Positions 3,215-53,523 are shown, counted from the stretch's first letter. The stretch is DNA of 64,000 nucleotides from Candidatus Fermentithermobacillaceae bacterium (GCA_018052475.1 JAGPNG010000007.1:2588-66587); one strand, 5' to 3'. A program made the numbers and translations. The notes: generated from the letters alone by a model not told the origin.

Positions 3215-4629
3215 AATCTCACTCCCAAGTCTCTTATAACTGATGTCACAAAATCAGCGTCTGTTTTGGTATCTTCTGCCAGAAATCGTATATCCTCCTC
3301 GGTAACGTTCTTCACTTTGTTTCTTTCCAAAGCGTTTCTAATATAAGACCTTCGCATCCTATTGAGATCCATCTCCGTGGCGGTGATCTGGGAGAAATCC
3401 TGAGGAATCACTATGGTTTTCCCTGGCTTGTTCTCTTTAGGGGCACCGCGTTTCACCGCGATCCCGTTCTGCTTGGCAAAATCCAATTGAGCCCAAGGGT
3501 GTTTTCCCGCCCCTGTGTACTCTGTTTCTTGGACTACCACGATCTCGTCTTCGGGAAGCTCTCTTGCCAAGGCGATGGCAGCAGCTAAGGAAGTATTTCC
3601 GGCAGGGCCTCTTTCCATGCCTTCAACTTGGGCAAGAGCCTCTGTCACATAAAATACCTCTCCCTGAGTTACCGTAACGTACCTGTCTAGGTATCTAAGG
3701 GGCCTTGCTGCGTTCTTCGGCACGTCAGTCCTATCAGGCCAGGTGGCAAAAGGTACCCCAAATCCTGTATGCCCTGTGGTGAAAGATTTCTTGTTAAAGT
3801 CATTGTCAGATGCCATATGAAGACCTGAGAGGTCTACGCTCGCACCTATGATAGTGCTGTTTTTTGCCCCCGCTTTCAAAGCACCTCTTGCAGTGCCGGT
3901 GACATTTCCACCGCCTGCGTGCGTCACCACAATATACGCCGGGTCTTTATCGTATCTCGCCCTAATCTGCTCTACGAGTTCATATCCTAGCGTTTCTACG
4001 CCTGAGATTCCGAAGGGGCTATACAAGGATGCATTGAAATATCCGGTTTCCTCCAGAAGTATCAAAGACACATAGAATAGCTCAGGACCAACAGTAAGTT
4101 GAACAACTTCTGCACCGTATGCTTCGCATTTCCTAGATTTTTCTATAATCTCTGGCTGACCTACATGACGAGAATCAAAGACTTCTTGAACTATTATGCA
4201 ACCTAGGTTTTTCATTGCCGCTTGAGATGCGACCGCTGCTCCATAATTGCCGCTTGTGGCAGCCAGAACTCCGGGATAGCCAAGTTTCTTTGCGTGGTGA
4301 ATTGATACGCTGGCCCTTCTGTCTTTGAAACTCCCAGACGGGTTAGCAGCCTCATCCTTTATGAGTATCCTGGCGCCAAACCCCCTTTTTGAGGTTTTTC
4401 TAACGAGATCTGTTATGTTCCTTAGCTCCAGCAAAGGTGTGTTTCCAACACCTGATTCGGATTGGATCTGCCTTACCTCTTCTAGAGAATAGCCTGCTTT
4501 TGCCATCATTCCCTCATAATCAAAGGCTATGTCAGATATTATGAATTCATCGTAGTTGAGCCCTAGGGCTCTTGACATTATTTCAGCCCTGCGGTCCATT
4601 ACCGCGTCGTAGGATGTGTCTTTTGCCAA
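3211..4629 (-). CDS. ortB: 2-amino-4-ketopentanoate thiolase beta subunit (PLP-dependent, TrpB/threonine-synthase fold)
   Basis: 472 aa ORF with a PLP-lysine region (SFKDRRAS) and a glycine-rich loop (HAGGGNVTG). It follows ortA within the ornithine degradation cluster. Confidence 0.8.
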   Translation of the reverse strand: MAKDTSYDAVMDRRAEIMSRALGLNYDEFIISDIAFDYEGMMAKAGYSLEEVRQIQSESGVGNTPLLELRNITDLVRKTSKRGFGARILIKDEAANPSGSFKDRRASVSIHHAKKLGYPGVLAATSGNYGAAVASQAAMKNLGCIIVQEVFDSRHVGQPEIIEKSRKCEAYGAEVVQLTVGPELFYVSLILLEETGYFNASLYSPFGISGVETLGYELVEQIRARYDKDPAYIVVTHAGGGNVTGTARGALKAGAKNSTIIGASVDLSGLHMASDNDFNKKSFTTGHTGFGVPFATWPDRTDVPKNAARPLRYLDRYVTVTQGEVFYVTEALAQVEGMERGPAGNTSLAAAIALARELPEDEIVVVQETEYTGAGKHPWAQLDFAKQNGIAVKRGAPKENKPGKTIVIPQDFSQITATEMDLNRMRRSYIRNALERNKVKNVTEEDIRFLAEDTKTDADFVTSVIRDLGVRL

Positions 4630-7726: not shown

Positions 7727-9382
7727 TTAGTCTTTTCTGCTGCCTTTACGCGTATCAAACTTGCGCATCTTGTTTATCGCCGTAGTGTGGGATATGCCCA
7801 AAGCGCTCCCAATCTGTCTGGAAGAATAGTAAACCTTGGAAGCTTGTGCAATGTAATGGGCTTCAATCTTTTCTAATAGCTCCGGTAGGTCCACAGGCAG
7901 TTTATCTGGCAGATAAAAGAGAGATTCGCTCCTTTTTTGTTCGGGTTCATCTGTTAGACTCCGAGATAGGTCTAAGAGGGCGTCTGGCTCTCGGAACGCT
8001 GATGCCGAGGGAACACTTTCTATGACTAGATGCGTCGCATCAATTTCTTCTGAGGCGAGTATTGCTGCCCTTTGAATCACGTTTTGAAGCTCGCGGACGT
8101 TTCCGGGCCAGCCATGGTCCAAAAGTCTGGCTATGGCGTTTTGACTCAACCTTAAGTCTGGTTTGCCAAGTTCTCTTGCCATGGTATTTACGAAATGTTC
8201 TGCCAGTAAAGGAATATCTTCTTTCCTGCTCCTAAGAGGAGGGATCCAGATAGGGATGACATTTAGTCTGTAGAACAGATCTTCTCGGAAAGTACCGTCG
8301 TTCATCATCTGCTCAAGTTCTTTGTTGGTTGCCGATACTATTCGGATATCGATTTTTATCTCTTGGCGTCCGCCTACACGTCGAATGCGTTGCTCCTGGA
8401 GCGCCCTTAAGATCTTGGCTTGGAGCGGGGGGGAGAGATCTCCAACTTCATCCAGAAAAAGCGTTCCATGGGTTGCTAGTTCAAGTAGCCCTTGTTTACC
8501 ACCGGATGAAGCGCCTGTGAATGCGCCTCGCTCATAACCGAAAAACTCGCTTTCAAGAAGGGAATCAGGTATCGCGGCGCAGTTTACCGTCACAAACGGA
8601 CCTTTCCTTCGAGATGAGTTCTTATGGATCGCTCGGGCGAAAAGCTCTTTGCCCGTACCGCTTTCCCCCCTGAGCATCACGCTCATATTAGTGGGGGCCA
8701 CGGTCTTGGCGAGATTTATAGCATTTGTAAATACCTGGCTTTCCCCTATTATATCTTCGAAGTCTATTAGCGAAGGCCCGCTTACCGACTGAATGAGCTG
8801 ACGGACGTCGTCTAGTTCGCGAAATATTATGAGCGCTCCTGCGGGGATGCCTTCTTCATTTGTGATAGTCCGTACGCTGGTTAGAACCCGGGTACTTTTC
8901 CCTTGCCATGTTACTGTTACTTCAATGTTATCTCTGTCCTCATCTAGCGACAAGGCTGGTTCGAAGTCCCTGCTCTTAAAGATCCCTTCTAGATTGGGCT
9001 GCCCTTTTTCAGGGATTCCTAGCATGTCTCTTGCTTTTTTGCTGAAATACGTAACAGTCCCTGACTGGTCAACGACTATGATACCTTCGCTGATGTTGTC
9101 GCCTATAACATCGAGAGTGGTTTCTTTCTTCTCGTATTCCATTATGTCGACTTCAATTATCTCGCCTATATCTACTACATGAGATTTCAGTTGGCGTGTA
9201 AGAGTCGCCCATGAAAGGTCTGAGGGCCATTGAACTTTGAAGTATATATGAGGGGGATTGACTTCAATGTTGAGTACATTTATCCCAAGATTGCTAACAG
9301 TCTTGAGGATGTCATAGACCATCCCTACTCGGTTTTGAGCCCCTGTGAATCTTAGTCGTTTTATCTTGTGGCTTCTATCCAA
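7727..9382 (-). CDS. TyrR-like sigma-54-dependent activator (ACT, PAS, AAA+ and HTH domains)
   Basis: 551 aa ORF with an N-terminal ACT-like region, a PAS region, GESGTGKE and GAFTGA motifs and a C-terminal HTH ([19 protein letters not shown]). The start is a TTG at 9382 preceded by a GGAGGGA ribosome-binding site. It is divergent from the tyrosine phenol-lyase gene. Confidence 0.8.
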
Positions 9383-9433
9383 AGGACTCCCTCCAGGTAT
9401 TTGAAATGACTAAATCGATCCTTGCCTGTCCCT

Positions 9434-9502
9434 TGTAAATATGTTTTACAAACAGGTGACAATCTGTTAATGACATTTACAGCTGTAAACGATGTTTACG
9501 AC
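9434..9502. promoter_or_regulatory. Cluster of TyrR-box-like palindromes (candidate activator-binding sites)
   Basis: TGTAAAtatgtTTTACA at about 9434-9450 and TGTAAAcgatgtTTTACg at 9485-9502 match the enteric TyrR box TGTAAA-N6-TTTACA. A further TTTACAgcTGTAAA lies between them. Confidence 0.5.
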
Positions 9503-9616
9503 AAGGGTGACTCCAAATCCTTCAGTCAAACTAACTAACCGATTTGGTCTCTCGCAGTCATGGCTGTAACCTGCATATGGAGTATTTGCTTGAGAGAGCG
9601 CTTATTCTTTCAACGA

Positions 9617-9632
9617 CGGCATGCTTTTTGCA
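9617..9632 (+). promoter_or_regulatory. Sigma-54 promoter upstream of tpl
   Basis: cGGCAT-gcttt-TTGCA gives GG-N10-GC with correct spacing, 45 nt before the tpl ribosome-binding site (GGAGGGG) and ATG. Confidence 0.55.
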
Positions 9633-9647
9633 TTAACATAGATGTAG

Positions 9648-11051
<1,404 letters not shown>

Positions 11052-11071: not shown

Positions 11072-11120
11072 CCATGGGGATGCAATTTGAGCTGTACAGC
11101 ATGCATCCCCATGGTTTTTT
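11072..11120. terminator. Bidirectional rho-independent terminator between convergent tpl and the trpB2 operon
   Basis: A GC-rich palindrome (ccatggggatgcaatttgagctgtacagcatgcatccccatgg) is followed by TTTTTT. Confidence 0.6.
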
Positions 11121-11123
11121 GCT

Positions 11124-11618
11124 TCAAGAAACTATGCTTGAAGAAAGGTTCTTGAGAACAGCGACGGAGACCGGTCGCTGTTCATAAGGCCAAGGCCACA
11201 GGTGCCTAGACGTTTTTGGGGGAAGCAATTTACCCGTTAGTCCGGCCGCAATTACAGTATCCTTTGTAACCGGTGAGATGGCTTGAGCCTTGGAACCGTC
11301 CCGTTCATCTGCGGTCAAAGAGGTTCCCCAGCTGGTTACCACTATCGCATCATCGTAATAATCCAGTAGGTATGCGGGAATGAACTGACATCCTAACGAT
11401 ACGAGTGCGCGAACTCGGTGATGCCCGTCAAGTATTATCATTGAGTTTACGTCAACGATTACTGGGTATTTGATCATGCCATCGCGCTCGATCTCTTGTG
11501 TGAGTTCAAGAACTCTATCGTTATCCACATTCTCATGTGATACCAGTTCCTTGTGGTGTACCAAAGCAAATGAGTACCGGCATGTTCCAGAACTGCAATA
11601 AGATTCGGGCTCTATCAC
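11124..11618 (-). CDS. ParB/Srx-fold protein; candidate free serine kinase (SerK-like) or other NTP-dependent enzyme
   Basis: Contains KYPVIVD...IILDGHHRVRAL, the ParB/sulfiredoxin core motif. The likely start is a GTG at 11618 preceded by AAAGGAGGG. It lies 70 nt downstream of trpB2 on the same strand, with no intervening terminator. Confidence 0.55.
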   Translation of the reverse strand: MIEPESYCSSGTCRYSFALVHHKELVSHENVDNDRVLELTQEIERDGMIKYPVIVDVNSMIILDGHHRVRALVSLGCQFIPAYLLDYYDDAIVVTSWGTSLTADERDGSKAQAISPVTKDTVIAAGLTGKLLPPKTSRHLWPWPYEQRPVSVAVLKNLSSSIVS

Positions 11619-11688
11619 TTTATTTACCCTCCTTTGCAGATTGTTGCCTTTTCGCCTGCATGACAACAGGTGAACGTTCAATCACATC

Positions 11689-13149
11689 TTACTCGTTGTT
11701 TCTTTGAGTCTTCGGTAGCGTGGCGAGCGCTTTATCTATCTCCGACTGAGGGTGCTTTACATTCGTTAGTTTCCCTTTGTGGTATTCATCATAGGCGCTC
11801 ATGTCAAAGTGCCCATGGCCGCTGAGTCCAAAGAGTATTGCCTTTTCCTCGCCTGTTTCTTTGCATTTAAGAGCCTCGTTTATTGCCACACGTATTGCAT
11901 GAGCTGATTCGGGAGCAGGGATGATGCCTTCGGACATTGCAAATAACTGAGCTGCTTCGAAAATCGCAAGCTGTTCTACCGCCCTTGCTTCTATCAGTCC
12001 ATTTTGCAAAAGTGCGCTGATTATTGGAGACATGCCGTGGTAGCGCAGACCTCCTGCGTGGATACCTGGCGGAACGAAATCATGGCCAAGGGTGTACATT
12101 TTCAGCGCAGGAACCATCCCTACGCTGTCTCCATAATCGTACGCGTATACTCCCCTTGTGAGTGTTGGGCAGGCTTCGGGCTCGACTGCGATTATTCTGG
12201 GAGATGAGGGACGCGGCGAATACGAATTCGAACATGCGTCATCAGTACCCTCTTTTTTGTGAGTAGTTGAAGACTTCATGCCTTTTAGCACGGGTTCCAG
12301 AAACGGAAAGGTGAGACCACCAAAATTACTCCCGCCGCCAGCGCAAGCGATGATTATGTCAGGAACATCTTCGGCTGCTTCCATCTGGGCCTTTGCTTCT
12401 AGACCTATTACTGTCTGATGCAAGAGAACGTGGTTTAAAACGCTTCCAAGCGAATACTTTGTTCCGGGACTTCTGACTGTGTCTTCTACTGCTTCGCTTA
12501 TTGCTATTCCGAGGCTACCGGGGCAATTGGGATCGACCGCCAAAGCCTTTCTTCCTGATTCTGTCTTATCGCTTGGGCTTGGAATAACATCGGCGCCAAA
12601 TACTTGCATCAGCGAACGCCTATATGGTTTTTGTTCGTAACTCCTTTTCACCATGTATACTATGCATTCCATGTCAAAGAACGAACACGCCATAGCTAAC
12701 GCTGAGCCCCATTGGCCTGCTCCTGTTTCTGTGCATAGTCTGCGTGTACCCTCTTGCTTGTTGTAATAAGCTTGTGCTACTGCTGTATTAGGCTTGTGAC
12801 TTCCTACAGGACTGGTCCCTTCATATTTGAAGTAAATCCTGGCAGGGGTATCCAGTGCCTTTTCGAGTCGCGTCGCCCGGTAAAGAGGAGTAGGCCTCCA
12901 CAGCCTATAGATGTCTAGGACCTCACCTGGGATGTCGATGGTTGGCTTTGTCGAGACTTCTTGTTCGATGACCGCCATGGGGAAGATAGCTGCCAAATCC
13001 TCGGGACCTGCTGGTTCCAAAGTATTTGGATTAAGAGGCGGCTCCAGTTGAAATGGTAGATCTGACAAGATGTTGTACCAACATGTAGACATATCCTTTT
13101 CATCCAAAACATACTTGACTCTCTTTTTACTTCCGACTTGCTTTTCCAT
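11689..13149 (-). CDS. trpB: Tryptophan synthase beta chain, TrpB2 type
   Basis: 486 aa [17 protein letters not shown] includes the PLP lysine, and GGGSNFGG is the TrpB glycine loop. The overall TrpB2 architecture carries an insertion of about 30 aa that is low in complexity ([26 protein letters not shown]). Confidence 0.8.
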
Positions 13150-13229
13150 TTGATTCTCTCCTTTCGTTCTACCCTCATGTTCGAATGCAACTAAATCGGT
13201 GGTCGGCTTCTAAATTGCTAGATATAATC

Positions 13230-13560
13230 AAAAAACCCGTCCTCTTCTCAGAGGACGGGTCATAGCCGTGGTGCCACCTCGATTGGATCTCTTCACGGGT
13301 CCGTCGGATGTCATGGACTTTAGGGTGCAAAGACACCCAAGACACCAGGCGGAGTTCAGGGATCCCTCTCGTCTGCAGATACGGGACTACACTTCGCGCA
13401 ATCATCTCTGAATGCAGTCCTTATATCCTTGCCCTTTTATCGGTGGGTTTCCGGCGGAACCTACTTGCTGCTACCCGTGTTTTCGCGTCCTTATAATGGC
13501 GACGGAATACTCTGGCGTTTTTCGTTCGGCACCGCTGCTCACGGGCCCATTCGGTCGCTC
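13230..13560 (-). ncRNA. T-box riboswitch leader (probably tRNA-Trp responsive) upstream of trpB2; the 5' boundary is approximate
   Basis: The minus strand carries a T-box sequence AATCGAGGTGGCACCACGG (about 13262-13286) that overlaps the 5' arm of a terminator hairpin CCCGTCCTC-tgagaa-GAGGACGGG followed by TTTTTT (13230-13259). This lies about 90 nt before the trpB2 start. The UGGC bulge would pair with a G73 discriminator, as in tRNA-Trp. A candidate specifier context GAAUGGG lies near 13546-13548. Confidence 0.6.
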
Positions 13561-13764
13561 CTTGCGGTGTCAGGCTTACACTGTCCCTGACTCGCTATAC
13601 CGACGGTGTTGCGCTTACTAGTCCCGATCATTGCGTTGGATTCAGTTATTTTGATGATGCTAGCATGTCATGTAGAGCGTTGTCAATATGTTTGGGGACG
13701 GTTTTGCGCTCATTCTGATTGGAAATATGTGCAAACCGTCCCCGTAATGCGTCGGGGCTTCGTT

Positions 13765-14364
13765 CTAGCCGAGGCCTAACCACTTAAGGAATATGAACTG
13801 GAAACGTCCTATTGCCGCCGATATACGGCCCATAACGGTGTTTCCAAAAGCTGCCCCAAAGGCAGCCATCATGAAGTAACGGCCGAGTTGTGAGGTGACT
13901 CCTGTGACTTTTCCTCTCTTAAAGGTCAGGAAGAAATAGCTTAGAGACAGGACCGTCCCAAGGAATACCACCCACGCGTCGAAAGAAGTCAAGTTTACCA
14001 TGGTTGCGGAGATCTGCTCGACGATCTGACTTTCTACGGCGCCTCTCATAGCAACGCCTGCTCCTGTTCCCATAAGGAAAGACAGCGGGATGCGGTTCAG
14101 CCATGCGACGCTCTCAAAGTAACGGGAGTAAAGAAGTAGGCCTAGGAGAATAGGCACTATGAGTAGATAGTTCCCACCAATCATAGGACTCCATGCCGAG
14201 TTCAAGAACGTATTCACACCCACAACAACTGCAATCCCTGCTGACGCTCCTACGAAGATGTGCTCGATCATAGTATAAAATGGGTTATCTTTGATAAGAA
14301 CTGAATAGATAGCAATAGCAGCTAACGCTCCTATCCACACTCCTATGTCAGTCGAGATCTTCAT
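13765..14364 (-). CDS. Integral membrane protein, unknown function (4th gene of the membrane operon)
   Basis: 199 aa ORF, hydrophobic throughout with glycine-rich helices. Its start overlaps the stop of the upstream gene. Confidence 0.55.
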   Translation of the reverse strand: MKISTDIGVWIGALAAIAIYSVLIKDNPFYTMIEHIFVGASAGIAVVVGVNTFLNSAWSPMIGGNYLLIVPILLGLLLYSRYFESVAWLNRIPLSFLMGTGAGVAMRGAVESQIVEQISATMVNLTSFDAWVVFLGTVLSLSYFFLTFKRGKVTGVTSQLGRYFMMAAFGAAFGNTVMGRISAAIGRFQFIFLKWLGLG

Positions 14365-15227
14365 TTGACCCCACCTCCAGCATTATATGACTTGGATTTG
14401 GGCTCTTTTCGTCCGCTTACGAACATGCCAATATTGCCTAGAAGTACAAAAACCACTATCAGAACGTGGGCGATGGACTGAGCGTCCATACCTACGGTTC
14501 CGGTGCCCTTTTTGCCTGTAAGTTTTTCGTACTCAGCGGCTGCTCTTAGCCCCGCGAGTATTCCTTTGCATTGCCCTGATTGGACATAGGTTTCATTGCT
14601 GGCAGCCAGGACTCCGGTAACCCCCATGATCAGTGGGGTTCCGTAAGCCATAACTGCCTGCCTTACCCACTCATGGGTTCCCGTTCCGCCGGTCGGCCCG
14701 TCGTTGAGCGTCATAGCCATCGCGAAATCCTTCATTGTGCTCACTTCTTGCATTATAGGCAGGGAATCAATGCTGGTGCCTCGCCAGTCCTTCGGAAAGA
14801 CCGATGCCGGATTTTGGGCGAAAGCAGCCAGCGTAGGTTCACCTCCGGCATAATAGCCTAAGTTGACGTAGTCAACGCCGTATTCATACCCGTATTCCTC
14901 CAGGATTGCCATGCATTCATCAGCAAAGGTAGGACCTGCGGGAAATGATGCTATAGCCACTACCTTGATTTTCTTTGAAGCCAACTGATGCATGATAGCC
15001 TGAGCTATTGGGTTAAGGTCTATCTCGTCTCCCGGTTCGTAGTCAAACCCTATGACGACTATAGAACCATCGGGAAGACTGCTTACAAAGTCATAGACTC
15101 TTTGGACCGGCTCAGTTACATCAATAGGCAATCCAATGGGGTGAATAGTAGGGATAGCGATAGCAAGGGCCATAAGAAGGTAGAACACGCGTTTATCTAG
15201 GTTCTGTAGCTTTTCAAATATGTCCAC
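14361..15227 (-). CDS. Membrane-anchored protein with a large extracytoplasmic domain, unknown function (3rd gene)
   Basis: 288 aa ORF with N- and C-terminal hydrophobic segments flanking a soluble domain of about 200 aa. No recognisable catalytic motif. Confidence 0.55.
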   Translation of the reverse strand: MDIFEKLQNLDKRVFYLLMALAIAIPTIHPIGLPIDVTEPVQRVYDFVSSLPDGSIVVIGFDYEPGDEIDLNPIAQAIMHQLASKKIKVVAIASFPAGPTFADECMAILEEYGYEYGVDYVNLGYYAGGEPTLAAFAQNPASVFPKDWRGTSIDSLPIMQEVSTMKDFAMAMTLNDGPTGGTGTHEWVRQAVMAYGTPLIMGVTGVLAASNETYVQSGQCKGILAGLRAAAEYEKLTGKKGTGTVGMDAQSIAHVLIVVFVLLGNIGMFVSGRKEPKSKSYNAGGGVK

Positions 15228-15239
15228 TTATTATCCCCC

Positions 15240-15863
15240 CTATTCTCCGCCGTAGGAACGGCGTTCTAGCCCTATAATGATCCTCAAAGACACAGCTATA
15301 AAACCTATGGCGCCTGCAATCATGACTCCACGCTGCCCACCTACGTTCAAAACTGACATGATCCAGTCGGTAGCGGGAACAGAAAAAGGTAGAATCTTGG
15401 CGCCCAAAGGAACCCTACCTAACATTACAATACAACCTGTTATGAGAAGGATGGCAGCTTCTGCGTTCTTGGCTCGGAAAGCTCTATAGGCCGCTGTTCC
15501 AATGTAGAACGCCAGCAACGAAAAGATCGCGCTGCCAGTAGGCACGTTTATATAGTCGAAAATGAACTTGTACGCGCTAGAGTCTTGTCCCAGAAACACC
15601 CCTGTGATTATTGTGATGGCAAATGTCACTAGGAGCGCTATGCTGTATATGCTCTTGCCCTTGTCTTTTCCTATGTTGTTAACATGAACTCTAATGATGT
15701 TAATGGCCCCAAGACCTAGGGCGAAAATCGCGATAACCGATTGCCACTTGAGAATATTTTGTGCGGTAGACTGCACGAAAGGTATGTTGAAGAAGTATGC
15801 TATTGCTACAGTTATTCCGCACACAAAGGCAATTATCGTCGGAAGCGTTTTCCTCATTAACAT
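15240..15863 (-). CDS. Integral membrane protein, unknown function (2nd gene)
   Basis: 207 aa polytopic hydrophobic ORF, 12 nt after the preceding gene. Confidence 0.55.
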   Translation of the reverse strand: MLMRKTLPTIIAFVCGITVAIAYFFNIPFVQSTAQNILKWQSVIAIFALGLGAINIIRVHVNNIGKDKGKSIYSIALLVTFAITIITGVFLGQDSSAYKFIFDYINVPTGSAIFSLLAFYIGTAAYRAFRAKNAEAAILLITGCIVMLGRVPLGAKILPFSVPATDWIMSVLNVGGQRGVMIAGAIGFIAVSLRIIIGLERRSYGGE

Positions 15864-15887
15864 GGACGCTCACCTCCTTGTGAGTGC

Positions 15888-16652
15888 TCATTTTGCCATC
15901 AGCGTTTTTATCCCCGTAGAGCCGAGAGTAACAGAAACTGCGCCGATTATCATCAATCCGATTGAGACTGCTTTTATAATATCTTCCGCACGAAGACTTC
16001 CAAGGTGGAGTTCGTTTTTGGCAAAATGCGCACTTGCTGCGAACATCTCGTCACCCAGGATAACGTAGTCACATGCTACGACAAAGAATGGGATTTGATA
16101 TGCGTTGGTGGTCCCGGCGATCTGAATTGCGCCGACAGTGTTACCGGCTTCAGCCAGAATAAGGGCTTCTGCCGCAAACTGACCGATCATTATGTTTGAT
16201 GCTACTTGCTCTCTTAGGAGCACGCCGATGACGCCACTTGCATAGGCCCACTGGTCGCTTGATATAAAGCGGCAATCCTCCGGCCTATATGCCTCAGGTT
16301 TTCCAGCCTCGAGGTAGCTTTGCCTCATGACTTGTTCCGTAACCGCGTATGTTTCCGGCTGTGAGACAGTTACTATCAGCCGGACGTCATATTGAGCAGA
16401 GAGCTTCGCAACATATCCCAAGACTTCCAGTCCTGCAAAGGTCGCGGCCACCAACCCGCCGAACCCCGGAGTGAAATGAACCGGTTTTCCCATTTCGGCT
16501 GCCCTACCTACGGCCTCTTCGATTGCATCAAAACCAGGAATTGGACGTACAGTCACCTTCATGCCTTTCTTCGCAAGATACATGTACACACACATCAATC
16601 CGGTCATGAAAAGGAGTGTCCAAAAATCGAATATCCTGTTTTCAACAAACAT
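15888..16652 (-). CDS. Membrane protein with central soluble domain, unknown function (1st gene)
   Basis: 254 aa ORF with an N-terminal transmembrane segment, a soluble region of about 170 aa and a C-terminal transmembrane segment. Same strand and tight spacing with the next three genes. Confidence 0.55.
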   Translation of the reverse strand: MFVENRIFDFWTLLFMTGLMCVYMYLAKKGMKVTVRPIPGFDAIEEAVGRAAEMGKPVHFTPGFGGLVAATFAGLEVLGYVAKLSAQYDVRLIVTVSQPETYAVTEQVMRQSYLEAGKPEAYRPEDCRFISSDQWAYASGVIGVLLREQVASNIMIGQFAAEALILAEAGNTVGAIQIAGTTNAYQIPFFVVACDYVILGDEMFAASAHFAKNELHLGSLRAEDIIKAVSIGLMIIGAVSVTLGSTGIKTLMAK

Positions 16653-23019: not shown

Positions 23020-23094
<75 letters not shown>

Positions 23095-23095
23095 T

Positions 23096-23171
23096 GCGCC
23101 TGTAGCTCAGGGGATAGAGCACCTGCCTTCTAAGCAGGGAGTCGCAGGTTCGATTCCTGCCAGGCGCACCA
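23096..23171 (+). tRNA. tRNA-Arg (anticodon TCT)
   Basis: Acceptor GCGCCTG/CAGGCGC, anticodon stem CCTGC/GCAGG with loop CTTCTAA, and CCA. Confidence 0.8.
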
Positions 23172-23191
23172 GTTTGAAAGCAAAGTGTTGT

Positions 23192-23269
23192 GGTGGATGT
23201 AGCTCAGTCGGTTAGAGCGCCAGGTTGTGGCCCTGGAGGCCGGGGGTTCAAATCCCCTCATTCACCCCA
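23192..23269 (+). tRNA. tRNA-His (anticodon GTG) with encoded G-1
   Basis: An extra 5' G pairs with C73. Acceptor GTGGATG/CATTCAC, anticodon loop TTGTGGC and CCA. Confidence 0.8.
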
Positions 23270-23287
23270 ATTTGTGAGTAACGGTTT

Positions 23288-23364
23288 GCGCCCGTAGCTC
23301 AATTGGACAGAGCCGCAGACTTCGGATCTGAAGGTTACAGGTTCGAGTCCTGTCGGGCGCGCCA
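23288..23364 (+). tRNA. tRNA-Arg (anticodon apparently TCG; the anticodon stem has one mismatch)
   Basis: Acceptor GCGCCCG/CGGGCGC, D-arm GCTCAATTGGACAGAGC, anticodon loop CTTCGGA, a GTTCGAGTC T-arm and CCA. Confidence 0.6.
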
Positions 23365-23366
23365 GA

Positions 23367-23441
23367 TGGGGCGTAGCCAAGTGGTAAGGCATCAGCCTTT
23401 GGAGCTGACATTCGCAGGTTCGAACCCTGCCGCCCCAGCCA
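23367..23441 (+). tRNA. tRNA-Gln (anticodon TTG)
   Basis: Acceptor TGGGGCG/CGCCCCA, a Gln-type D-arm GCCAAGTGGTAAGGC and anticodon loop CTTTGGA. Confidence 0.8.
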
Positions 23442-23444
23442 AAG

Positions 23445-23519
23445 GGGCCATTAGCTCAGGGGTAGAGCACCCGCCTTTTAAGCGGGGAGTCGATGGTTCG
23501 AATCCATCATGGCCCACCA
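23445..23519 (+). tRNA. tRNA-Lys (anticodon TTT)
   Basis: Acceptor GGGCCAT/ATGGCCC, anticodon stem CCCGC/GCGGG with loop CTTTTAA, and CCA. Confidence 0.8.
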
Positions 23520-23538
23520 TCTTTTTCGTTCTCCGAAT

Positions 23539-23624
23539 GCGAGGGTGTCGGAACCGGCAGACGAGCTGGACTTAGGATCCAGTGCCCCAAAGGCGTAGGG
23601 GTTCAAATCCCCTCCCTCGCACCA
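23539..23624 (+). tRNA. tRNA-Leu (anticodon TAG), type II with long variable arm
   Basis: Acceptor GCGAGGG/CCCTCGC, anticodon stem CTGGA/TCCAG with loop CTTAGGA, an extra arm of 15 nt and CCA. Confidence 0.8.
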
Positions 23625-43982: not shown

Positions 43983-44058
43983 TGGGGACTTAGCTCAGCG
44001 GCAGAGCGTTCGGTTCACATCCGAAAGGTCACAGGTTCAAGCCCTGTAGTCCCCACCA
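43983..44058 (+). tRNA. tRNA-Val (anticodon CAC)
   Basis: Acceptor GGGGACT/AGTCCCC, anticodon stem TTCGG/CCGAA with loop TTCACAT, a GTTCAAGCC T-arm and CCA. Confidence 0.8.
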
Positions 44059-53120: not shown

Positions 53121-53523
53121 TGGGTAAGCAGGTCAGGTAGTCGCAAGCGGTTATGACGCTTGAGGAAAGTCCGGGCTCCACAGGGCATGGCGCTGGGTAA
53201 CGCCCAGCGAGGGTGACCTTAGGGAAAGTGCCACAGAGACATACCGCCCTCAACCAGAGCCTCCATAACCTCGAAAAGGTGCTCGTGCGCCTTGAAGGGT
53301 TGAACGGCACTGGTTTGGGTAAGGGTGAAAAGGTAGTGTAAGAGACTACCGGCAGTCGGGCGACCGGCTGGCCAGGCAAACCCCGCCAGGAGCAAGACCA
53401 AATAGGGGGGCTGTGACGCTGCCCGCCGAGCCCCCGGGTATGGTCGCTTGAGGGAAAAGGCAACTTTTCTCCTAGATAGATGACTACCCTCGACAGAACC
53501 CGGCTTATAGACCTGCTTACCGC
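53121..53523 (+). ncRNA. rnpB: RNase P RNA, bacterial type A
   Basis: P4 core GAGGAAAGTCCGGGCTCC, GGGTAACGCCCAGCG (P10-11 region) and the 3' ACAGAACCCGGCTTA. P1 pairing is GGTAAGCAGGTC/GACCTGCTTACC. Followed by a T-run. Confidence 0.85.

What the first reader, a model, noticed from the sequence alone, without database searches (positions are those of the whole stretch)
11124..13560. T-box-controlled TrpB2 plus ParB/Srx-fold protein: candidate O-phosphoserine-based indole salvage module with a bacterial SerK-like serine kinase
A T-box leader on the minus strand precedes a TrpB2-type tryptophan synthase beta gene. The leader has the T-box sequence AGGTGGCACCACGG, a terminator and a UGGC bulge compatible with the G73 discriminator of tRNA-Trp.

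The TrpB2 gene is followed, on the same transcript with no terminator, by a protein of about 160 aa with the ParB/sulfiredoxin core motif (IILDGHHRVRAL). There is no trpA or other trp gene in the window.

The published biochemistry fits a pathway. TrpB2 enzymes prefer O-phospho-L-serine over serine and have high indole affinity. The only characterised free L-serine kinase (archaeal SerK) has a ParB/Srx fold. Together these suggest the ParB/Srx protein phosphorylates serine to feed TrpB2, which makes Trp from scavenged indole, induced by uncharged tRNA-Trp.

To my knowledge a bacterial SerK-like partner of TrpB2 has not been described. TrpB2 also carries an unusual low-complexity insertion of about 30 aa.
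Basis: partly seen in the sequence, partly recalled or inferred. Interest (0 to 1): 0.85.

Follow-up and report, generated by a model that had tools for sequence, protein, structure and literature searches.

The report
Trp-starvation operon: TrpB2 plus mini serine kinase
A tryptophan-sensing RNA switch controls a two-gene operon that pairs an indole-scavenging tryptophan synthase (TrpB2, known to prefer O-phosphoserine) with a previously unstudied, stripped-down relative of the free serine kinases SerK and SbnI, which most likely makes that O-phosphoserine on demand.

Summary
On the minus strand lie a promoter, a Trp T-box leader, trpB2 and a 164-aa ParB/Srx-fold gene, with no terminator between the two genes. 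The T-box has a UGG specifier, a UGGC bulge and a terminator. It scores 75.9 bits, below Rfam's cut-off of 93, with E 1e-16.

The family is large (1,848 representatives). In 43 of 80 genomic loci it sits beside a beta-replacement PLP enzyme: TrpB2 (22), CysM-like (14) or A. pernix-type O-phosphoserine sulfhydrylase (7). One natural fusion to a cysteine synthase exists. All 17 assessable bacterial trpB2-mini-serK loci carry the same Trp T-box.

Caveats. The pairing defines one TrpB2 clade only: 0 of 65 other TrpB2 loci have the partner. Kinase activity is inferred, not shown. SbnI is already a known bacterial free serine kinase, so this is a new variant of a known kind.

The parts
13657..13686 (-). 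Sigma-70-like promoter: TTGACA, 18-nt spacer, TAGCAT, with an extended TG.
   Evidence: Consensus scan, 10 of 12 matches. It lies about 17 nt upstream of the first T-box model position. Function is inferred.
13248..13640 (-). T-box leader (Stem I with specifier loop, Stem II/III region with large insertions, antiterminator).
   Evidence: Rfam RF00230, 75.9 bits, E 1.4e-16, full model 1-219, below the gathering score of 93. Homologous leaders score 57.7-85.5 bits in L001, L004, L006, L012, L015, L018 and L078.
13547..13549 (-). Specifier codon UGG (Trp), preceded by GAA (13552-13550) and followed by the purine G13546.
   Evidence: cmscan alignment register. The same GAA-UGG-R is present in the window and all 17 related leaders.
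13266..13279 (-). T-box core AGGUGGCACCACGG. The UGGC bulge (13276-13273) would pair with the tRNA 3' end G73-C-C-A.
   Evidence: Sequence. The C at the variable position is conserved in all 18 leaders. That bacterial tRNA-Trp carries G73 is established knowledge, not tested here.
13230..13261 (-). Intrinsic terminator: 12-bp stem, 4-nt loop, U-run. Its 5' arm overlaps the 3' arm of the antiterminator.
   Evidence: Terminator scan. RNA fold -45.2 kcal/mol, z = -2.8.
11689..13149 (-). trpB2: TrpB2-type tryptophan synthase beta (486 aa).
   Evidence: NF009057 712 bits (cut-off 366) and TIGR01415 645 bits (cut-off 519). PDB 6hul 4e-131 and 4qys 4e-114.
12202..12297 (-). Low-complexity insertion in TrpB2 (residues about 285-316), in a loop of variable length.
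   Evidence: Gap in the alignment to 6hul. Loop length varies by 0 to about 30 residues among 20 homologues.
11627..11635 (-). Shine-Dalgarno AAAGGAGGG, 8 nt before the GTG start of mini-serK.
   Evidence: Sequence. No terminator-like site lies in the 70-nt spacer.
11124..11618 (-). mini-serK: 164-aa ParB/Srx-fold protein, a compact homologue of the free serine kinases SerK and SbnI. Key residues: His28-Glu29 (11537-11532), Asp64-Gly-His-His-Arg68 (11429-11415), Lys119, Pro133-Pro-Lys-Thr-Ser-Arg-His139 (11222-11202).
11072..11114 (.). Inverted repeat (CCATGGGGATGCA ... TGCATCCCCATGG) between the convergent mini-serK and tyrosine phenol-lyase genes. Probably a shared, bidirectional terminator.
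   Evidence: Sequence. Not flagged by the pattern scan; function is inferred.

Best explanation
This is a self-contained, tryptophan-starvation-inducible operon: promoter, Trp T-box riboswitch, trpB2, mini-serK.

Proposed mechanism:
1. When tRNA-Trp is uncharged, its anticodon pairs with the UGG specifier and its free 3' end pairs with the UGGC bulge.
2. This stabilises the antiterminator, and RNA polymerase reads through into both genes.
3. The 164-aa mini-SerK, a ParB/Srx-fold enzyme homologous to SerK and SbnI, phosphorylates free L-serine to O-phospho-L-serine, using a nucleotide donor not yet known.
4. TrpB2 condenses that O-phosphoserine with indole to give tryptophan and phosphate.

The pair thus spends one phosphoanhydride bond to convert serine and scavenged or leaked indole into Trp.

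What is shown here: the RNA element and its Trp specificity signals; the TrpB2 family assignment; homology and fold of the small protein with the free serine kinases, including their essential residues; co-transcription signals; co-inheritance of the two genes.

What is inferred: the kinase activity, its substrate and donor, the O-phosphoserine preference of this particular TrpB2, and the source of indole.
For: RNA element:
- T-box model hit with a UGG specifier, a UGGC bulge and overlapping terminator/antiterminator.
- The same leader precedes trpB2 in all 17 bacterial trpB2-mini-serK loci with enough upstream sequence.

TrpB2:
- It scores above the equivalog cut-off.
- TrpB2 enzymes are reported to be O-phospho-L-serine dependent, with high indole affinity (Busch 2014 and Hettwer & Sterner 2002, as cited in PMC11917138).

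Mini-SerK homology and structure:
- Best NCBIfam hits are SerK and SbnI.
- The family profile matches SerK at 1.4e-25 in two blocks (residues 13-115 and 204-241).
- Foldseek's top nine hits are all SerK or SbnI.

Catalytic residues:
- The family's invariant Glu aligns with SerK Glu30, the residue mutated in the E30A and E30Q crystal forms.
- The same Glu aligns with SbnI Glu20, and the invariant Asp of DGHHR aligns with SbnI Asp58. Both are required for SbnI kinase activity (with the alignment).
- GHHR is the GxxR nucleotide-phosphate motif of the fold.

Genomic context:
- Of 80 family loci, 22 follow TrpB2, 14 precede a CysM-like enzyme and 7 precede a CysO-type enzyme.
- The CysO-type partner's best solved relative is A. 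pernix O-phosphoserine sulfhydrylase, at 5.7e-76 against 1e-37 for the next hit.
- A TusA-miniSerK-PALP cluster exists.
- There is a natural mini-SerK-cysteine synthase fusion, P0105.

Co-evolution:
- The 18 bacterial partnered TrpB2s form an exclusive clade, as do their 21 mini-SerKs.
- The two archaeal pairs arose separately.

Precedent: SbnI feeds OPS to SbnA, and SerK feeds OPS to CysK.
Against: - No biochemical data exist for any member of this short family.
- The protein lacks the part of SerK between residues about 116 and 203. I could not read the SerK structure paper to learn whether serine-binding residues lie there.
- It scores far below the SerK and SbnI equivalog cut-offs: 56.6 against 380, and 32.3 against 350.
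- In the TrpB2-linked clade the C-terminal Lys is often Arg, and is once Leu.
- 0 of 65 other TrpB2 loci carry the partner. TrpB2 therefore does not generally need it; OPS is also an intermediate of the SerA/SerC pathway.
- About 37 of 80 family loci have no adjacent PLP enzyme.
- Some members are fused to GalU-like nucleotidyltransferases, so the family may not be mono-specific for serine.
- One SerK-like protein was reported to bind CTP rather than ATP.
Confidence: 0.68

Rival explanations
1. The small protein is a ParB/Srx-fold small-molecule kinase, but its physiological substrate or direction differs. Examples: it phosphorylates threonine, homoserine or another hydroxy compound; it supplies a different activated substrate to TrpB2; or it runs in reverse, from OPS to serine.
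For: - The central SerK subdomain is missing.
- Family members are fused to GalU-like nucleotidyltransferases and a hexapeptide transferase, which suggests kinase-then-nucleotidyl-transfer chemistry on other substrates.
- Many loci lack a PLP partner.
- Nucleotide preference in the fold is plastic.
Against: - The two recurrent partners, TrpB2 and CysO/CysM-type enzymes, share exactly one known unusual substrate: O-phosphoserine.
- The only characterised relatives, SerK and SbnI, are specific for free serine.
- The TrpB2-linked members form one clade that keeps all the catalytic motifs.
Confidence: 0.12
2. The small protein is a non-catalytic or regulatory partner. It could be an allosteric activator or chaperone of fold-type-II PLP enzymes, standing in for TrpA, or a ParB-like regulator (SbnI also acts as a transcription factor).
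For: - SbnI is bifunctional, acting as both regulator and kinase.
- Some database entries call family members 'transcriptional regulator'.
- P0105 carries a degenerate second copy that has lost the catalytic motifs.
Against: - The Glu, Asp-Gly-His-His-Arg and Thr/Ser-Arg-His motifs are invariant or nearly so across hundreds of divergent members. That pattern is expected of an enzyme, not a scaffold.
- There is no HTH or other DNA-binding domain: Pfam finds only a weak ParB_N match.
- The operon already has its own regulator, the T-box.
Confidence: 0.1
3. It is a conventional ParB-like nuclease or partition-type protein, or a sulfiredoxin-like repair enzyme, whose adjacency to trpB2 has no metabolic meaning.
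For: - There is a weak Pfam ParB_N hit (20.1 bits, below the cut-off of 26.3) and weak Noc and ParB TIGRFAM hits.
- The P. furiosus SerK orthologue was once described as a nuclease.
Against: - ParB, Noc, KorB and Srx match only the roughly 80-residue N-domain, with much weaker scores.
- There is no HTH or dimerisation domain.
- There is no Cys in the GxxR motif: the window has DGHHR, whereas the sulfiredoxin catalytic motif carries a Cys (established knowledge).
- Adjacency to TrpB2 is conserved with a shared T-box in 17 or more genomes, and arose independently in archaea.
Confidence: 0.04

Closest known systems
SerK, ADP-dependent free L-serine kinase of Thermococcus kodakarensis (TK0378; PDB 5x0b and related; P. 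furiosus 1vk1)
   Same: - Profile match 1.4e-25.
- Catalytic Glu30 equivalent, DGHHR (GxxR) motif, Lys205 equivalent and the C-terminal P-K-T-T/S-R-H motif are all conserved.
- It supplies O-phosphoserine to a fold-type-II PLP enzyme, CysK.
   Different: - The window protein has 164 aa against 242 and lacks SerK residues about 116-203.
- Identity is about 22 %.
- It scores 56.6 bits against the equivalog cut-off of 380.
- It is bacterial, sits in an operon with TrpB2 and is under a Trp T-box.
- The phosphate donor is unknown.
- Makino et al. stated that clear-cut homologues are absent outside four archaeal genera.
SbnI-SbnA of Staphylococcus aureus (staphyloferrin B pathway)
   Same: - It is encoded with the PLP enzyme that consumes its O-phosphoserine.
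- Its essential Glu20 and Asp58 align with the family's invariant Glu29 and Asp64.
   Different: - SbnI has 254 aa, with an extra C-terminal region and a second role as a heme-responsive transcriptional regulator.
- Its motif is DGVHR, not DGHHR.
- The C-terminal KTSRH motif is poorly conserved.
- Its product feeds siderophore synthesis, not Trp.
- It scores 32 bits against the cut-off of 350.
TrpB2 (TrpB2_o/a/i) stand-alone tryptophan synthase beta homologues (S. solfataricus 4qys, 6hul, 6hte; T. maritima)
   Same: - The window protein is a full-length member, above the NCBIfam cut-offs, with E 4e-131 to 1e-113 to solved TrpB2 structures.
- Published properties of the family are O-phosphoserine dependence and high indole affinity.
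   Different: - It belongs to a distinct bacterial clade that is always followed by mini-serK.
- It has a long variable-loop insertion.
- An earlier neighbourhood analysis found no conserved trpB2 context other than trp operons (Merkl 2007).
Trp-specific T-box leaders (RF00230) of Firmicute trp and trpS genes
   Same: - Stem I with GAA-UGG-purine specifier loop.
- 14-nt T-box with UGGC.
- Mutually exclusive antiterminator and terminator.
   Different: - Three large insertions make the leader 393 nt long, against a 219-position model.
- They keep it below the Rfam gathering score, so routine annotation misses it.
- It controls a salvage pair rather than a trp operon or trpS.
DUF1015 'SerBK' proteins proposed as serine kinases (GapMind 2026 preprint)
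   Same: They are proposed free serine kinases encoded with serine-pathway genes and have remote structural similarity to SbnI.
   Different: They belong to a different and much larger family, linked to serA and serC, with no TrpB2 or T-box link. They are not detected as relatives of the window protein here.

Membership tests
T-box leader (Rfam RF00230) | Covariance-model score at or above the curated gathering score (93 bits). | tested here: not met
   75.9 bits, E 1.4e-16, full-length match to model positions 1-219. Not listed at the gathering threshold. The shortfall is due to three long insertions.
T-box leader (Rfam RF00230) | Specifier loop with an S-turn GAA, a codon and a 3' purine. 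The codon matches the regulated pathway. | tested here: met
   GAA-UGG-G at 13552-13546. The same GAA-UGG-R is found in 17 of 17 related leaders.
T-box leader (Rfam RF00230) | Conserved T-box sequence with a UGGN bulge, inside an antiterminator that competes with an intrinsic terminator. | tested here: met
   AGGUGGCACCACGG at 13279-13266. The terminator at 13261-13230 shares its 5' arm with the antiterminator.
T-box leader (Rfam RF00230) | Read-through induced by uncharged cognate tRNA. | not testable with these tools
   Requires in vitro transcription or reporter assays with tRNA-Trp.
TrpB2 (NCBIfam NF009057 / TIGR01415) | Score above the curated equivalog cut-off. | tested here: met
   712.2 bits against 366, and 645.5 against 518.85. 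The canonical trpB model TIGR00263 gives only 156 bits against 392.
TrpB2 (NCBIfam NF009057 / TIGR01415) | Preference for O-phospho-L-serine over L-serine, and low Km for indole. | not testable with these tools
   Known for other TrpB2 enzymes (Busch 2014, cited). I could not obtain the substrate-determining residues, so they were not checked.
SerK, ADP-dependent L-serine kinase (NCBIfam NF053625) | Full-length match above the equivalog cut-off (380 bits), with a two-domain architecture of about 242 aa. | tested here: not met
   56.6 bits, matching model positions 16-105 of 244 only. The profile alignment shows SerK residues about 116-203 have no counterpart.
SerK, ADP-dependent L-serine kinase (NCBIfam NF053625) | Catalytic Glu30 and the DGHHR (GxxR) nucleotide-phosphate motif. 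| tested here: met
   Glu29 and Asp64-Arg68 are invariant in 43 family members and align with SerK E30 and D69-R73.
SerK, ADP-dependent L-serine kinase (NCBIfam NF053625) | C-terminal segment K205 ... P220-K-T-T-R-H225. | tested here: met
   Lys119 and Pro133-His139 align with it. In the TrpB2-linked clade the Lys is often Arg. The role of this segment in SerK could not be checked, because the paper is not held.
SerK, ADP-dependent L-serine kinase (NCBIfam NF053625) | Phosphorylation of free L-serine. | not testable with these tools
   Needs an enzyme assay.
SbnI (NCBIfam NF033589) | Score above the cut-off (350 bits), with the C-terminal regulatory and heme-responsive region. | tested here: not met
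   32.3 bits, N-terminal region only. There is no counterpart of the SbnI C-terminal region.
SbnI (NCBIfam NF033589) | Glu20 and Asp58, essential for kinase activity. | tested here: met
   They align with the invariant Glu29 and Asp64 (alignment, where chain indices 22 and 60 equal native 20 and 58; residue roles).
Canonical ParB/Spo0J/Noc (TIGR00180, TIGR04285) | ParB N-domain plus HTH DNA-binding and C-terminal dimerisation domains, with a score above the cut-off. | tested here: not met
   [not shown]
Sulfiredoxin | Srx fold of about 100 aa, with a catalytic Cys in the GCHR motif. | tested here: not met
   [not shown]

The most novel reading that the evidence does not exclude
Mini-SerK proteins are a widespread, so far unstudied family of minimal free-serine kinases: about 130-170 aa, with 1,848 representatives at 50 % clustering. 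They define a general 'activate serine by phosphorylation, then substitute' strategy for beta-replacement PLP enzymes in bacteria and archaea.

- With CysO/CysM-type partners they would make cysteine.
- With a dedicated TrpB2 clade they would form an NTP-driven indole-to-tryptophan salvage cassette, switched on by uncharged tRNA-Trp.

This would give TrpB2's puzzling O-phosphoserine preference a physiological supplier. It would be the first conserved non-trp-operon partner found for trpB2. The unique N-terminal domain of archaeal O-phosphoserine sulfhydrylase may be a degenerate relic of such a kinase.
Probability: 0.55. Interest if true: 0.72.

Novelty: new variant of a known kind. Interest (0 to 1): 0.64.

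Why it matters
TrpB2 enzymes occur in many bacteria, archaea and plants. Their preference for O-phosphoserine has been known since 2014, with no dedicated supplier identified. An earlier neighbourhood analysis found no conserved partner for trpB2.

Free serine kinases are known from only two settings: archaeal cysteine and serine metabolism (SerK) and staphyloferrin B synthesis (SbnI). If the mini-SerK phosphorylates serine, four things follow:
- A third physiological use of free serine kinases, in tryptophan salvage.
- A minimal catalytic core for the enzyme class, about 90 residues shorter than SerK. This is useful for mechanism and engineering, for example one-pot synthesis of Trp analogues from serine plus indoles.
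- A better annotation for well over a thousand 'ParB N-terminal domain' or 'transcriptional regulator' proteins.
- An explanation of how uncultured anaerobic-digester Bacillota can turn community-derived indole into Trp.

The hypothesis can be tested directly with two recombinant proteins.

Tried and rejected
Dead ends:
- The primary SerK structure paper (PMID 28358477), the SbnI paper (PMC5912478) and the Vitreschak T-box survey (PMC2271356) are not held. SerK's serine-binding residues and earlier listings of T-box-regulated trpB2 could therefore not be checked. The SbnI residue roles come second-hand from PMC9641203.
- The residues that determine O-phosphoserine preference in TrpB2 could not be obtained, so they were not evaluated.
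- My crude ORF caller missed the mini-SerK ORF in 24 loci. I replaced it with tblastn-based adjacency.
- The Rfam gathering-threshold scan missed the T-box. The permissive scan was needed.
- Literature searches for TrpB2 with serine kinase, SerK or ParB, and for T-box with trpB2, found no description of this pairing. Subscription literature is largely not covered.

Considered and rejected:
- Canonical ParB, Noc, nuclease and sulfiredoxin identities.
- A functional link to the convergent tyrosine phenol-lyase gene. It is a TPL, not a tryptophanase (825.6 bits against the TPL cut-off of 720.7; below the TnaA cut-off). It neighbours the module only in the two closest relatives, L001 and L002.
- The TrpB2 low-complexity insertion as a special functional feature. 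It lies in a hypervariable loop.
- Universality of the TrpB2 partnership: 0 of 65.
Full report
**1. What is in the sequence**

The region reads on the minus strand as follows.

| Element | Coordinates | Evidence |
|---|---|---|
| Sigma-70-like promoter, TTGACA-18-TAGCAT with extended TG | 13686-13657 | |
| T-box leader | 13640-13248 | |
| trpB2, 486 aa, behind a GAAAGGAG ribosome-binding site | 13149-11689 | |
| 70-nt spacer, no terminator-like site | 11688-11619 | |
| Shine-Dalgarno AAAGGAGGG, 8 nt before the GTG start | 11635-11627 | |
| 164-aa ORF | 11618-11124 | |
| 13-bp inverted repeat, shared with the convergent downstream gene | 11114-11072 | |

The ORF lister's longer 185-aa TTG start is unlikely. 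The closest homologues are 164 aa, and the GTG has the strong SD.

**2. The T-box**

- Rfam's T-box model is not reported at the gathering threshold.
- With permissive filters it matches end to end (model positions 1-219) at 75.9 bits, E 1.4e-16 for the 751-nt stretch. The curated cut-off is 93.
- The deficit comes from three long insertions, which make the leader 393 nt long against a 219-position model.
- The alignment places GAA-UGG-G in the specifier loop. The T-box core is AGGUGGCACCACGG, with a UGGC bulge.
- The antiterminator's 3' arm is the 5' arm of a 12-bp terminator followed by a U-run.
- UGG is the Trp codon. The bulge C would pair with a G73 discriminator, as in bacterial tRNA-Trp (established knowledge).

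The element is not a one-off. In the 17 bacterial relatives of this operon that have enough upstream sequence, a GGUGGCACC(A/G)CG core lies 66-236 nt before trpB2. All have GAA-UGG-purine, all have the C in the bulge, and 16 of 17 have a U-run. Seven that were scanned with the model give leaders of 57.7-85.5 bits upstream of trpB2, again all below the gathering score. The T-box is therefore real and Trp-specific, and it would be missed by routine annotation.

**3. TrpB2**

- The 486-aa protein exceeds the cut-offs of both TrpB2 models: NF009057 at 712 against 366, and TIGR01415 at 645 against 519. It falls far below the canonical trpB model, at 156 against 392.
- Its best solved relatives are the S. 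solfataricus TrpB2 structures (6hul 4e-131, 4qys 4e-114, 6hte 1e-113).
An alignment of 20 homologues shows that this loop varies from no extra residues to about 30, and is simply longest in the window's own clade.
- No trpA or trpB1 is found in the window.
- Published work describes TrpB2 enzymes as O-phospho-L-serine dependent, with high indole affinity (Busch 2014 and Hettwer & Sterner 2002, as cited in PMC11917138). This was not tested for this protein.

**4. The small protein is a compact relative of the free serine kinases**

Sequence:
- Pfam sees only a sub-threshold ParB_N match (20.1 against 26.3).
- NCBIfam's best hits are the SerK equivalog (2e-15) and the SbnI equivalog (6e-8). Both are far below their cut-offs, and both cover only the N-terminal part of the models.
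- Against PDB sequences, the single protein hits P. furiosus 1vk1, T. kodakarensis SerK and SbnI.
- A profile of 43 family members hits SerK at 1.4e-25 and SbnI at 1.9e-13, against 1e-4 or weaker for Noc and ParB.
- The SerK match comes in two blocks, residues 13-115 and 204-241. The family is therefore SerK without residues about 116-203.

Structure:
- An AlphaFold2 model built on the family alignment is confident (pLDDT 87.6, pTM 0.80). Only the clade-specific loop at residues 100-104 is poorly defined.
- Foldseek's nine best PDB matches are all SerK or SbnI (E 3e-9 to 1e-7, query TM 0.62-0.70). ParB, Noc and Srx align over about 80 columns only.

Conserved residues:
- Family invariants are His28-Glu29, Asp64-Gly-His-His-Arg68, Lys119, Thr136 and His139. 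Pro133, Lys135, Ser137 and Arg138 are nearly invariant.
- Glu29 aligns with SerK Glu30. In the E30Q and E30A crystal sequences, that column carries Q or A.
- Glu29 and Asp64 align with SbnI Glu20 and Asp58, which are required for SbnI kinase activity (alignment; residue roles).
- GHHR is the GxxR nucleotide-phosphate motif of the ParB-CTPase fold.
- In the TrpB2-linked clade the C-terminal motif is PP[K/R]TSRH, with rare deviations.
- There is no HTH, no dimerisation domain and no sulfiredoxin-type Cys.

**5. Genomic context of the family**

A scan of one genome per species found 246 relatives, of which the best 80 loci were analysed. By tblastn:

| Context of the mini-SerK gene | Loci |
|---|---|
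| TrpB2 gene ends 21-288 nt upstream, same strand | 22 |
| CysM-like gene starts 2-30 nt downstream | 14 |
| CysO-like gene follows within about 75-225 nt | 7 |
| Total adjacent and co-directional with a beta-replacement PLP enzyme | 43 of 80 |

In addition, three loci have the CysO-like gene one gene away, and four have a convergent trpA-trpB1 pair next door.

- The CysO-like partner's best solved relative is A. pernix CysO, the O-phosphoserine sulfhydrylase, at 5.7e-76. The next cysteine synthase scores 1e-37.
- The CysM-like partner matches E. coli CysM and the O-phosphoserine-specific M. tuberculosis CysM about equally.
- One archaeal context is TusA-miniSerK-PALP.
- A full scan of 1.84 billion representatives finds 1,848 family members at E 1e-10 or better.
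- Among the longer hits, P0105 is a natural fusion: mini-SerK, then a degenerate second copy, then a CysK/M-type PLP domain.

The recurrent partners share one unusual substrate, O-phosphoserine. This matches the two known precedents, SerK with CysK and SbnI with SbnA.

Not all contexts fit. About 37 of 80 loci have no PLP neighbour. Some members are fused to GalU-like nucleotidyltransferases or a hexapeptide transferase.

**6. How general is the TrpB2 pairing?**

I anchored on TrpB2 in an independent collection of metagenomes. The scan was cut at 600 candidates, and the 80 loci kept have TrpB2 57-63 % identical to the window's.
- None of the 65 loci with at least 450 nt downstream contains a mini-SerK. 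The same search finds it in 80 of 80 positive controls.
- Eleven of 71 have a T-box core upstream, at least seven with a UGG candidate. Trp T-box control of trpB2 is therefore broader than the pairing.
- In a neighbour-joining tree, the 18 bacterial partnered TrpB2s form one exclusive clade, separate from all 80 unpartnered ones. The two archaeal partnered TrpB2s (L049, L054) fall elsewhere.
- The 21 bacterial TrpB2-linked mini-SerKs likewise form one pure clade.

The module is thus a co-inherited cassette of one TrpB2 lineage. It is found in Bacillota (including Ca. Fermentithermobacillaceae and Symbiobacterium) and Caldisericota, with independent gene-order convergence in archaea. One contig is labelled Ignavibacteriales, but its proteins are about 90 % similar to those of a Bacillota MAG, so transfer or mis-binning is possible. 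The trees are NJ without bootstrap, and the metagenome sample is not exhaustive.

**7. Mechanism proposed**

1. Uncharged tRNA-Trp stabilises the antiterminator, and both genes are transcribed.
2. Mini-SerK converts serine to O-phosphoserine.
3. TrpB2 uses it with indole to make Trp.

Shown here: the RNA signals, the family and fold assignments, the conserved catalytic residues, the operon structure and the co-inheritance.

Inferred: the kinase activity, its substrate and donor (ADP for SerK, ATP for SbnI, and CTP binding reported for one SerK-like protein), the OPS preference of this TrpB2, and the indole source. The closest relatives come from digester MAGs (record titles), where community-derived indole is plausible.

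Because most TrpB2 genes lack the partner, the kinase is best seen as an accessory. It would make the OPS supply independent of the SerA/SerC pathway rather than being a general requirement of TrpB2.

**8. Comparison with what is known, and novelty**

The protein works like SerK and SbnI on every feature I could test, but it is not a member of either equivalog. It fails both score cut-offs, and the central subdomain is missing.

What appears new:
- the minimal architecture and its breadth;
- the link to TrpB2;
- its control by a Trp T-box.

Full-text searches found no paper linking TrpB2 with a serine kinase, SerK or ParB. The SerK discovery paper does not mention tryptophan and reports no clear homologues outside four archaeal genera. 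The 2025 survey of the ParB-CTPase fold does not mention TrpB or cysteine synthase partners. An earlier neighbourhood analysis found no conserved trpB2 context besides trp operons. One JGI record already carries the automatic label 'L-serine kinase (ADP)', so pipelines partly anticipate the assignment.

I rate this a new variant of a known kind. It is well supported by comparative evidence, directly testable, and of solid but not extraordinary interest.

Noticed in passing
window 7727-11051: A tyrosine phenol-lyase gene lies at 9678-11051 on the + strand (TIGR02618 825.6 bits, above the cut-off of 720.7; below the tryptophanase cut-offs). It is divergent from a sigma-54 activator with ACT-PAS-AAA+-HTH domains, similar to TyrR and PrdR, at 7727-9382 on the - strand. 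The TPL gene is convergent with mini-serK, but it neighbours the module only in the two closest relatives, L001 and L002.
   Followed up: partly
[not shown]
   Followed up: partly
P0173, P0230, P0207 (representative-library hits): Here the mini-SerK domain is fused to the C-terminus of GalU-like nucleotidyltransferases (396 and 422 aa) or a hexapeptide-repeat transferase (297 aa). This is the classic kinase-plus-nucleotidyltransferase logic and suggests some family members activate a substrate other than serine, or make a nucleotide-linked serine derivative.
   Followed up: partly
P0101, P0102, P0103, P0108, P0110: These are long proteins (455-649 aa) with two tandem mini-SerK domains. Each domain is preceded by a DPTSYF(F/Y) motif, and the two are joined by low-complexity linkers. 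The origin is unknown; the composition looks eukaryote-like.
   Followed up: no
L005, L008 (Caldisericota MAGs); L007 (Ignavibacteriales-labelled MAG): Trp T-box cores with a UGG specifier and a U-run lie upstream of trpB2 in MAGs outside the Bacillota. L007's TrpB2 is about 90 % similar to that of Bacillota MAG L006 (its nearest neighbour on the mini-SerK side too), so horizontal transfer or mis-binning is possible.
   Followed up: partly
L012:4154-4346: A second T-box scores above the gathering threshold (104.5 bits) with an apparent CUC (Leu) specifier. It lies about 1.8 kb downstream of the trpB2-mini-serK pair and is unrelated to it.
   Followed up: no
L021 (labelled Candidatus Deferrimicrobium): Its mini-SerK-CysM pair is about 95 % identical at the CysM protein level to those of Cryosericum (Caldisericota) genomes. 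This suggests a mis-binned contig or a recent transfer.
   Followed up: no
window 13765-16652 (- strand): Four consecutive genes for hydrophobic proteins (199, 288, 207 and 254 aa) lie immediately upstream of the T-box promoter. The two that were scanned (199 and 288 aa) have no Pfam match. This may be an uncharacterised membrane complex or transporter.
   Followed up: no
window 3532-4449 (- strand): A weak tblastn similarity to CysM and TrpB1 queries (E 1e-8 and 2e-6) indicates another fold-type-II PLP enzyme gene in the window. It was not classified.
   Followed up: no
window 23021-23624, 43984-44058, 53125-53523: A cluster of seven tRNA genes (Gly, Arg, His, Arg, Gln, Lys, Leu), a lone tRNA-Val, and a class A RNase P RNA (315.7 bits). 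These are ordinary housekeeping RNAs. No tRNA-Trp gene is in the window.
   Followed up: no
L003:4362-4529 (- strand): A group II intron D1-D4 fragment (RF02001, 76 bits) lies near the end of a Fermentithermobacillaceae contig that carries the module.
   Followed up: no
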